Positions 22,740 to 23,112 of a DNA stretch of 64,000 nt are shown here, in pieces. This DNA is from Malacoraja senta. Taxonomy: Eukaryota. The stretch is taken from positions 12,526,001 through 12,590,000 of the forward strand of contig CM075991.1 in the NCBI GenBank assembly GCA_038087875.1, written 5' to 3'. The stretch's first letter is position 1, and each line of letters starts with the position of its first letter. A program made the position numbers and the translations under genes. The notes under the pieces are model-generated. The model did no database searches, was not told where the DNA came from, and saw only the letters and a program-made list of their open reading frames with translations.

Positions 22740-23112
22740 AATTGACTCAAAGATAGACCCAAAATGCTGCAGTCCCCCTGAAAAAACTGCAAGGGAGCAT
22801 CTCTGGATAGAAGGAATGGGTGACGTTTCGGGTCGAGACCCTTCTTCAGACTGAATTGGTGAAGAGGGAGATAGAGATAAGGGAATGTAAGGTGTGAAAA
22901 CGAGACAAAGGATGTTGATCAAGGAAAATGTAGAATAGACCATTGTTAGCTGGGAGAAGCTAACAACAAAGCAAACAGATGAAATGTAAACGAGGACAGA
23001 CTAGCCGGAGAACTGGAAAGGGGGGAGGGATGGAGAGAGGGAAGGCTAAGGGTCCTTGAAGTTAGAGAAATCAATATTCATACTGCTGGAGTGTAAGCTG
23101 CCCAAACAAAAT
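22740..23112 (-). mobile_element. Penelope-like element 3' fragment (GIY-YIG ORF end, 3' UTR, hammerhead)
   Basis: 23111-23055 translates to FCLGSLHSSSMNIDFSNFK, resembling the PLE endonuclease C-terminus (LIFxLGTLQPxGxNIxF); followed by a pyrimidine-rich UTR and an intact hammerhead core. Confidence 0.75.
22822..22849 (-). ncRNA. Minimal hammerhead ribozyme motif (PLE type)
   Basis: CUGAAGA-A-GGGU(CUCG)ACCC-GAAAC-GUC: conserved core boxes, stem II hairpin, palindromic ACGU in place of stem III, GUC cleavage triplet; stem I only ~2 bp visible. Confidence 0.65.

What the first reader, a model, noticed from the sequence alone, without database searches (positions are those of the whole stretch)
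22740..23112. Abundant Penelope-derived family carrying a minimal hammerhead ribozyme
Seen: more than 25 short copies across the window share a terminus (...gagttactccagca...catctgcagttc). Many contain CTGAAGA-A-[GGGT CTCG ACCC]-GAAAC-GTC. The core is intact at 22822-22849(-), 30265-30292(-), 39749-39776(-) and 45098-45125(+), and has a CTGATGA variant at 23592-23619(-). Stem II varies while staying paired: GGGT-CTCG-ACCC in one subfamily, GGGT-TTCG-GCCC (UUCG loop, U-G wobble) in the other. This copy links the motif to a reading frame ending FCLGSLHSSSMNIDFSNFK. Known: CUGANGA/GAAA/NUH is the hammerhead catalytic core; Penelope-like elements carry minimal hammerheads with a palindromic, nearly absent stem III and are reported to cleave as dimers; PLE ORFs end in a GIY-YIG endonuclease. 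Inference: this genome is seeded at high density with PLE-derived ribozyme modules, including in PGAM2, STARD7 and OGDH introns, which could cut pre-mRNA or define the RNA ends of a non-autonomous retroelement. Caveat: only ~2 bp of stem I is visible.
Basis: partly seen in the sequence, partly recalled or inferred. Interest (0 to 1): 0.85.

Follow-up and report, generated by a model that had tools for sequence, protein, structure and literature searches.

The report
Penelope retroelement ribozyme at transcript start
This is one of roughly 0.7 million mostly decayed copies of the end-piece of a known kind of jumping gene (a Penelope-like element) that carries a predicted self-cutting hammerhead RNA; the copies' ends pile up three bases before the hammerhead rather than at its cut site, which likely marks where the element's RNA starts and suggests that the short copies are made from uncut RNA.

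Summary
The motif is real and belongs to the pseudo-LTR of a Neptune-type Penelope-like element (PLE). Whole 3.87-kb RT + GIY-YIG units lie in head-to-tail arrays elsewhere in the genome. A 1.2-Mb sample gives about 0.69 million copies (3.9% of bases). The motif fits the published minimal type I hammerhead, and its stems covary with relatives from metagenomes, but stem I here is only 2 bp. Most copies have decayed (28 of 256 cores keep the full fold), so cutting of host pre-mRNA is unlikely. New here: the ribozyme does not set the copy ends. 5' ends cluster at -6..+3 of CUGA (136 of 401) and not at the cut (12 of 401). At head-to-tail re-priming junctions an extra G stands before A(-3) in 30 of 38 informative cases, the signature of a copied cap. 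Transcription likely starts at TCA*GT, which is also the 5' strand of stem I. The RT likely primes in the tail (+94 or +130), copies to the cap, then inserts (a 'strong-stop'-like module) or jumps to another RNA. No RNA-end or cleavage data could be obtained.

The parts
22750..23116 (-). Focal copy: 5'-truncated PLE end (endonuclease C-terminus, 3' UTR, hammerhead, short tail)
   Evidence: aligns end to end with natural copy L005; 40 listed genome matches at 81-87%
23055..23111 (-). Last 19 codons of the GIY-YIG endonuclease domain
   Evidence: 11/18 identical to the end of the 916-aa RT + GIY-YIG frame of L051; same frame continues into IYCIRCSRC...YIG in other copies
22855..23051 (-). Pyrimidine-rich 3' UTR / upstream part of the pseudo-LTR; differs between subfamilies
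22850..22854 (-). TCAGT: 5' strand of stem I and inferred initiator; inferred main start at the A (22852, position -3)
   Evidence: shared by all subfamilies while upstream sequence differs; 5' ends cluster here; extra G before this A
22822..22849 (-). Minimal type I hammerhead: CUGAAGA, extra A, stem II GGGU/ACCC, GAAA, palindromic A-C-G-U, C17; predicted cut between 22822 and 22821
   Evidence: sequence; matches the consensus of PMC4209133 Fig S3; covariation with relatives
22820..22821 (-). 3' strand of the 2-bp stem I (A1.1, C1.2)
22750..22819 (-). Tail up to the short end (about +95), the inferred RT priming site; long-tailed copies end at about +130
   Evidence: bimodal 3' ends
23523..23621 (-). 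Short module (-2..+97), CTGATGA variant with broken stem II
30203..30298 (-). Short module, core intact, stem I lost; member of an inverted pair
39645..39812 (-). Young-subfamily copy (-36..+132), core intact, 98% like a young reference copy
45097..45229 (+). Short module (-1..+131), core intact, stem I 1 bp
63065..63434 (+). Compound young insertion: inverted module plus three 44-nt head-to-tail hammerhead units (each damaged), flanked by a 16-bp target-site duplication (63065-63080 and 63419-63434); in an OGDH intron

Best explanation
The locus is a 5'-truncated copy of a Penelope-like retroelement, likely of the Neptune clade, whose terminal repeat holds a minimal hammerhead motif; the element's RNA likely starts, capped, three bases before the hammerhead core, and most genomic copies are likely short cDNAs copied from the tail to that cap on uncut RNA. 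Steps. (1) Shown: the full unit is hammerhead, tail, about 165 nt to ATG, one ORF (RT, CX4CxxC linker, GIY-YIG), 3' UTR, next hammerhead; units occur in head-to-tail arrays. (2) Inferred from junctions: Pol II starts at TCA*GT (A-3, less often A-6), so the primary RNA has only A-G-U before CUGA, and the initiator is also the 5' strand of stem I, which would explain why stem I is 2 bp. (3) Inferred, by analogy with the anole Poseidon protein: the endonuclease nicks target DNA and the RT primes inside the RNA at +93-96 or +129-131. (4) Inferred: priming in the 5' tail gives a 95-135-nt cDNA that ends at the cap. It is inserted (short module with target duplication), joined head to head with the cDNA from the other strand (inverted pairs, 154 of 401), or extended by a jump to an internal site or to the 3' end of another RNA (compound and tandem copies). 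Long copies such as the focal one come from priming in a downstream tail of a read-through RNA or after such a jump. (5) Inferred: the hammerhead is kept by selection on source elements and would cut slowly, as a dimer and probably with the element's protein; inserted copies then decay neutrally and are unlikely to cut host RNA.
For: Protein and unit structure. Copy number: 424 copies in 1,198,400 sampled bases, 0 tail-profile hits in reversed sequence; 29,069 and 27,931 exact motif hits for two subfamilies, controls 0 and 1. 5' ends of 233 simple copies: chance of ending per base 9-10.6% at -6..-1, 0.4% at +27..+30 and 1.5% at -12..-9. Only 1 of 87 copies starting at -12..-1 has endonuclease sequence upstream, and their flanks are unrelated. 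Target duplications of 7-16 bp in 39 of 129 short copies, control 4%. Extra G before A(-3): 32 G, 5 A, 3 T among the 40 non-C cases in the first 100 of 202 re-priming junctions (30 of 38 without duplicates, p 1e-10 against 28%; hand count, test); 24 of 49 in a partly overlapping second set; 38 of 100 at all junction types (p 0.015). An extra G marks the cap in full-length L1 insertions (PMC11702581, passage). Compound insertions join pieces ending at +216..+284, some with A7-A9, to modules starting at -4/-3. 3' ends are bimodal, about 36 nt apart, like the two RT starts of PMC11167929, which also found uncut RNA the main substrate and cutting only with protein. Covariation: 7 of 9 pairs change on both sides across 12 natural motifs, 0 of 500 shuffles as high, slid controls 28-43% paired vs 90%. 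Loose ends at -6..-2 also appear in three of the four runs laid, from three organisms.
Against: No direct RNA 5'-end data: only contigs were available. The 5' ends are spread over about 12 nt, wider than a single start would give in simulation. At junctions starting at -4 there is no excess of G (30 of 100) but an excess of C (45 of 100). TCAGT is not conserved before the core in the metagenome relatives. TCAG-T-CTGA is itself a palindrome and could stall the RT or favour joins. Some jump donors reach -36, -58, -129 or -353, so not all templates start at -3. None of the 30 loci holding the ORF's 5' part began at -6..+3; 4 of 15 independent loci did. The G tallies were counted by hand. The priming step rests on a Poseidon-clade protein, not on this one.
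Confidence: 0.68

Rival explanations
1. The 5' ends mark a barrier, not an RNA start: on long read-through RNA the RT stalls at the palindrome UCAG-U-CUGA (paired between two RNAs or bound by the element's protein), or the endonuclease cuts the new DNA there.
For: The cluster (-6..+7) covers the palindrome (-5..+4); inverted pairs are often joined exactly on it; the spread is wider than one start site; PMC8557442 invokes endonuclease resolution for PLE tails.
Against: It does not explain an untemplated G exactly before A(-3) and A(-6), the two pyrimidine-purine steps; the chance of ending rises towards the far edge of the palindrome instead of its near edge.
Confidence: 0.2
2. The ribozyme cuts efficiently, unit RNAs are ligated into circles, and copies (including the tandem arrays) come from rolling-circle reverse transcription, as proposed in PMC4209133.
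For: Arrays of 254-, 275- and 384-bp ORF-deleted units with an intact motif in every unit examined and identical junctions, ending at a tail end; long copies read seamlessly across the cut site; about 11 of the 100 listed junctions end exactly at +28.
Against: Circles have no end at -3 and no cap. With a pattern that also sees the left side, ends spread over +24..+31 with no single peak at +28. No excess of copies starting at +29. Stem I is 2 bp. May still hold for the arrays alone.
Confidence: 0.15
3. The short modules are a self-propagating SINE-like family with its own internal promoter, mobilised in trans by the PLE protein.
For: Short copies greatly outnumber long ones (34 of 233 simple copies reach beyond -41); they hold the inferred start and both priming sites; many older tails were seen mainly as short copies.
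Against: Young short copies are 93-100% like the end of the autonomous unit; most lack the upstream half of the initiator; no short-only subfamily was demonstrated.
Confidence: 0.2
4. Intronic copies act as ribozymes that cut host pre-mRNA.
For: By extrapolation about 45,000 copies keep core, stem II, palindrome and 2 bp of stem I (28 of 256 cores in 1.2 Mb); young tandem arrays could dimerise in cis.
Against: G12 is lost at the CpG rate; only 1 of 16 same-strand pairs within 300 nt has both cores intact; the double-hammerhead fold is predicted at about -6 kcal/mol against about -25 for competing folds (non-canonical core pairs are not scored, and relatives show the same trend); published minimal motifs do not cut as monomers, and 8 of 9 Xenopus dimers did not cut.
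Confidence: 0.06

Closest known systems
Minimal hammerheads of metazoan PLEs (Cervera and de la Pena 2014, PMC4209133; main text parts 1-2 and supplement parts 1-2 read)
   Same: CUGANGAH, G10.1-C11.1, GAAAN-palindrome-NUH, pyrimidine-rich upstream flank, place in the pseudo-LTR, mostly single dispersed copies. The motif of relative L242 differs by one base from their Acropora digitifera Neptune motif.
   Different: No cartilaginous fish in their table or alignment; 4,000-9,000 motifs per vertebrate genome there against hundreds of thousands of copies here (different counting methods); stem I is 2 bp with one U-A or U.G pair (their 2-bp cases are two G-C pairs).
Poseidon element of Anolis carolinensis (Frangieh et al. 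2024, PMC11167929; parts 1-2 of 4 read)
   Same: Two internal RT start sites that define the tail, both target strands extended, uncut RNA as template, no reads ending at the cut site.
   Different: Poseidon clade with the ORF starting inside the hammerhead; here the ATG is about 165 nt downstream. In the parts read, no transcription start or 5' pile-up at the ribozyme edge is reported.
Penelope of Drosophila virilis (Schostak et al. 2008, PMC2377424; passages)
   Same: Internal TATA-less promoter with Inr and DPE in the pseudo-LTR; 2-bp stem I.
   Different: There the start lies 46 nt before a 75-nt intron whose 3' end abuts the hammerhead; here no intron was found and the inferred start is on stem I itself.
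Non-LTR retrozymes (Li et al. 2026, bioRxiv 10.64898/2026.07.22.740005; parts 1 and 3 and passages read)
   Same: Tandem 250-400-bp units with one hammerhead each, derived from PLE ends; reported in one chondrichthyan.
   Different: Only a few arrays here are of this kind; the bulk are single 95-135-nt modules or inverted pairs.

Membership tests
EN+ Penelope-like element | Single ORF with RT and C-terminal GIY-YIG | tested here: met
   L051 916-aa frame: RVT_1 E 1.4e-4, GIY-YIG E 1.2e-3, both under Pfam's cut-off; 723 homologues, most listed ones with RT and PF26215
EN+ Penelope-like element | CCHH motif with two Cys between GIY and YIG | tested here: met
   IYCIRCSRCQLIYIG...EHL...QHF in L051; feature as defined in PMC8557442
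EN+ Penelope-like element | Tandem or partial-tandem pseudo-LTRs and inverted 5' copies | tested here: met
   3.87-kb and 4.03-kb head-to-tail units; inverted neighbour in 154 of 401 copies
EN+ Penelope-like element | Optional 30-40-bp tail; variable target-site duplication | tested here: met
   3' ends at +93-96 and +123-131; duplications of 7-21 bp
Neptune clade | CX2-5CxxC linker between RT and EN | tested here: met
   CNRKRCNTC; this motif is shared with Nematis
Neptune clade | RT phylogeny with named Neptune references | not tested
Indirect: L242 (47% identical over residues 231-657) bears the A. digitifera Neptune motif bar one base
Minimal type I hammerhead | Core CUGANGA / GAAA / NUH, extra base before G10.1-C11.1, palindromic 15.2-16.2 | tested here: met
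   invariant in 12 natural motifs
Minimal type I hammerhead | Stems I and II with covariation | tested here: met
   7 of 9 pairs change on both sides; the 10 relatives were picked with a hammerhead descriptor, which favours pairing; in this family stem I has only 2 pairs
Minimal type I hammerhead | Self-cleavage as a dimer | not testable with these tools
   needs in vitro work
Rfam hammerhead families | Covariance-model score | tested here: not met
   no hammerhead family among 17 matches at E<=5
Non-LTR retrozyme | Tandem units each with a hammerhead | tested here: inconclusive
   met by three arrays elsewhere; not met by the focal copy or most copies
Non-LTR retrozyme | Circular RNA | not testable with these tools
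   no raw RNA reads

The most novel reading that the evidence does not exclude
In this element the hammerhead is at once the core promoter and a retrovirus-like R region. Transcription starts on stem I; the RT makes a tail-primed strong-stop cDNA to the cap; the ribozyme's real job is to cut only the downstream copy, so that the RNA ends in the same 31 nt with which it starts and the strong-stop cDNA can transfer to it. Pseudo-LTRs, tandem arrays and the 0.7 million short modules would all be products or failures of that first-strand transfer.
Probability: 0.25. Interest if true: 0.78.

Novelty: new variant of a known kind. Interest (0 to 1): 0.52.

Why it matters
How Penelope-like elements (relatives of telomerase) replicate, and what their hammerhead is for, are open questions. 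This family offers hundreds of thousands of junctions, young intact arrays and exact predictions: capped start at -3, priming at +94/+130, cut at +28/+29. The genomic record says that the templates are uncut and that their 5' end lies on the ribozyme's own stem I, which ties promoter, ribozyme and priming site into one 135-nt module and explains a 4% share of this genome without a separate SINE. The bare presence of minimal hammerheads in PLEs is already known.

Tried and rejected
Rfam scan: no hammerhead match. RNA evidence: no RNA holder listed on record and only contigs were available, so starts, ends and expression could not be read. A 5' UTR intron was considered because of AG|GTATG and one 88-nt skip in one contig; rejected because that ATG aligns with the start of homologues. 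Chimeras between subfamilies at the hammerhead (a test of homologous strand transfer): none clear among 101 long copies in the three large clusters; weak, since the subfamilies may not have been active together. Fold-back of the long tail onto the core as the cause of the 5' ends (pairing predicted): rejected, both tail classes behave alike (44 of 125 and 32 of 88). A peak of junctions at the cut site: suggested, not upheld. Artefact from unrepresented 3' UTR subfamilies: rejected. Conservation of TCAGT in distant relatives: not found. The possible + strand gene at 22-38 kb could not be identified. No solved structure matched the protein profile. Lunse et al. 2017 is not held and is known only from the review passage. 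Earlier findings of the scan: none. Literature searches (listings and abstract openings) showed no report of this family or of a start site on a PLE hammerhead; Repbase, Dfam and most subscription papers are not covered. Supplements: one Cervera file was not searchable, the Frangieh files held gave no hits and their figures are not held, and bioRxiv supplements are closed; these could bear on the novelty claim.

Full report
Numbering: +1 is the C of CUGA (window 22849, minus strand); +28 is H17; the predicted cut is +28/+29.

Observation. The motif is at the stated place and is far above chance (15 hits against 1.31). A profile built from the tail alone finds 51 copies in the window. Of the five cores named, 22849(-) keeps the whole fold; 39776(-) does too, with a TTTG loop and GUU; 45098(+) and 30292(-) keep the core with 1 and 0 bp of stem I; 23619(-) has a broken stem II. 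Rfam has no matching model.

What it is. Twenty genome matches to the focal copy extend the frame upstream into a GIY-YIG endonuclease. L051 holds a 916-aa open frame with RT and GIY-YIG hits, both below Pfam's cut-off, and 723 homologues, the closest named one from a bamboo shark at 67%, so the host is likely a cartilaginous fish. The linker CNRKRCNTC and the two cysteines inside GIY-YIG fit Neptune or Nematis as defined in PMC8557442 (passages). A metagenome relative, L242, carries the Acropora Neptune hammerhead of PMC4209133 Fig S3 bar one base. No tree with named references was made. Whole units of 3.87 and 4.03 kb lie head to tail; the hammerhead is about 120 nt (young subfamily) or 200 nt (focal subfamily) after the stop and about 165 nt before the next ATG. 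The focal copy is a 367-bp 5'-truncated end of an older subfamily.

Abundance. 120 stretches of 10 kb at round coordinates on the large contigs (1,198,400 bases) hold 424 copies, with 0 tail-profile hits in reversed sequence: about 0.69 million copies and 3.9% of bases by extrapolation. Exact motifs of two subfamilies occur 29,069 and 27,931 times.

The ribozyme. It matches the published consensus for minimal PLE hammerheads. In 80 metagenome loci a descriptor found 13 motifs and 0 in reversed sequence; ten of them (one duplicate and two with longer stem III left out), with two from this genome, give changes on both sides at 7 of 9 pairs (the descriptor favours pairing). Between subfamilies here the changes fall on tolerated places: loop, U-A to U.G at 10.4/11.4 and 2.1/1.1, C17 to U17. 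Non-CpG core positions differ from the nearest reference at 4.8% against 9.9% for the tail (70 copies, p 1e-5), which points to selection on source elements. After insertion the copies decay: G12 is lost in 62 of 256 cores; 96 keep the 11 core bases and 28 the whole fold with 2 bp of stem I. Stem I stops after 2 bp, against 2-8 (mostly 3-4) in relatives. The double-hammerhead fold is predicted much weaker than competing folds, also in most relatives. Published minimal motifs cut poorly even as dimers; the anole motif cuts only with its protein. Cleavage was not tested.

Where copies end. 3' ends fall at +93-96 and +123-131, the PLE tail that PMC11167929 traced to two internal RT starts. 5' ends do not follow the cut: of 401 copies away from stretch edges 316 span it, 12 start at +27..+31 and 136 at -6..+3. 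Among 233 simple copies the chance of ending per base is 0.4% at the cut, 9-10.6% at -6..-1 and 1.5% at -12..-9. This is not a reference artefact, holds for old and young copies and both tail classes, and the copies are true insertions (duplications in 39 of 129, control 4%). Simulation shows the cluster is wider than a single position. Loose ends at -6..-2 recur in three of the four runs laid, from three organisms, though some are divergent UTR.

Why they end there. Young compound insertions join pieces that end at +216..+284, +555 or +817, some with A7-A9, to modules starting at -4/-3, all inside one target duplication: the RT appears to reach an RNA end and jump. At short head-to-tail junctions, where no target sequence blurs the end, the base before A(-3), when it is not the templated C, is G in 32 of 40 cases in the first 100 of 202 hits (30 of 38 without duplicates, hand count), and G precedes A(-6) seven times. 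A second, partly overlapping pattern gives 24 of 49 (first 100 of 387). Over all junction types the excess is small (38 of 100 listed of 1,599; also 14 of 26) and absent at -4 (30 of 100 listed of 871, with C in excess). An extra G is the mark of a copied cap in L1 (PMC11702581, one passage); an untemplated C added by the RT at a free end would also mean an RNA end. TCA*GT fits the initiator consensus (recalled) and is kept by all subfamilies while the upstream UTR varies, but not by distant relatives. A 4-of-5 match to the DPE consensus (recalled) overlaps ACGUC and is weak. I put the start-site reading at about 0.7; a barrier at the palindrome TCAG-T-CTGA is the main rival.

Mechanism. Capped RNA begins A-G-U-CUGA, leaving room for only 2-3 bp of stem I. 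The RT primes in the tail. If that is the 5' tail, the cDNA is 95-135 nt and is inserted alone, joined head to head with the cDNA primed from the other target strand (154 of 401), or extended by a jump. Long copies need a downstream tail or a jump. Three arrays of ORF-deleted units (254, 275, 384 bp; the last with 13 consecutive units listed and more beyond) have an intact motif in every unit examined and are retrozyme-like; they may come from circles or from later DNA expansion.

Host genes. A PGAM-family gene (+) and OGDH (+) are confirmed; the STARD7-like gene (-, about 11.4-20.6 kb) is named from recall. The focal copy lies outside all three. Copies sense to them are damaged: 2806 (stem II), 11736 (G12A), 45098 (1-bp stem I; only possibly in the OGDH 5' intron), the three units at 63239-63354 (G8A, broken palindrome, U4C). 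Pre-mRNA cutting is unlikely here; strand bias genome-wide was not tested.

Verdict. A new, very abundant member of a known class, with one feature not found in the papers searched: genomic evidence that the transcript starts on the ribozyme's stem I and that the short copies are tail-to-cap products of uncut RNA. Interest 0.52.

Noticed in passing
G000:C1:28902400-28907200, C1:256827800-256831800, C1:231191600-231192900 (L339-L350, L363-L368, L371): Retrozyme-like tandem arrays of ORF-deleted units (-129..+263, -58..+223, -36..+220) with identical junctions and intact young hammerheads; the best natural substrates for a cis-dimer cleavage test.
   Followed up: partly
L345, L347, L353, L354, L359, L339-L368: Captured RNA 3' ends cluster at +216..+284, some with short A runs, which looks like early termination 200-300 nt after the inferred start.
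   Followed up: partly
L089 and L092 (with L369, L370): Two full-length, duplication-flanked elements begin at +25..+27, 2-4 nt before the predicted cut, inside the stem III palindrome; unexplained.
   Followed up: partly
random sample: CpG decay at G12 and G16.2 leans to G>A (116 against 76 C>T), while loop and tail CpGs are even (62 against 64); p 0.05, weak.
   Followed up: partly
Short re-priming sites cluster at +24..+39, where stem I would hold the RNA's 5' end next to the 3' strand; the patterns limit the range seen.
   Followed up: partly
window 22480-22680: Five head-to-tail copies of a 40-bp unit derived from the element's tail (+ strand), next to the focal copy.
   Followed up: no
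window 25692-25828 and 27349-27486 (+): Two SNORA77-like H/ACA snoRNA matches (32.7 and 45.9 bits; cut-off 42), suggesting an unidentified + strand host gene at about 22-38 kb, to which the focal copy would be antisense.
   Followed up: partly
G000:C1:3872000-4036000: A satellite of about 2.45 kb period carries one young module per unit (20 units among the hits listed).
   Followed up: no
window 7043-7780, 18600-19300, 23930-24480, 46743-47550, 56150-58470; 41250-42080; 57220-57980: Fragments that look like other LINE reverse-transcriptase families (CR1-like and L1-like by recalled resemblance); 39% of the window matches repeats in the sampled stretches.
   Followed up: no
L089 and L179: Two different insertions (one full-length, one short) sit at the same site of a repeated flank, a hint of target preference.
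   Followed up: no
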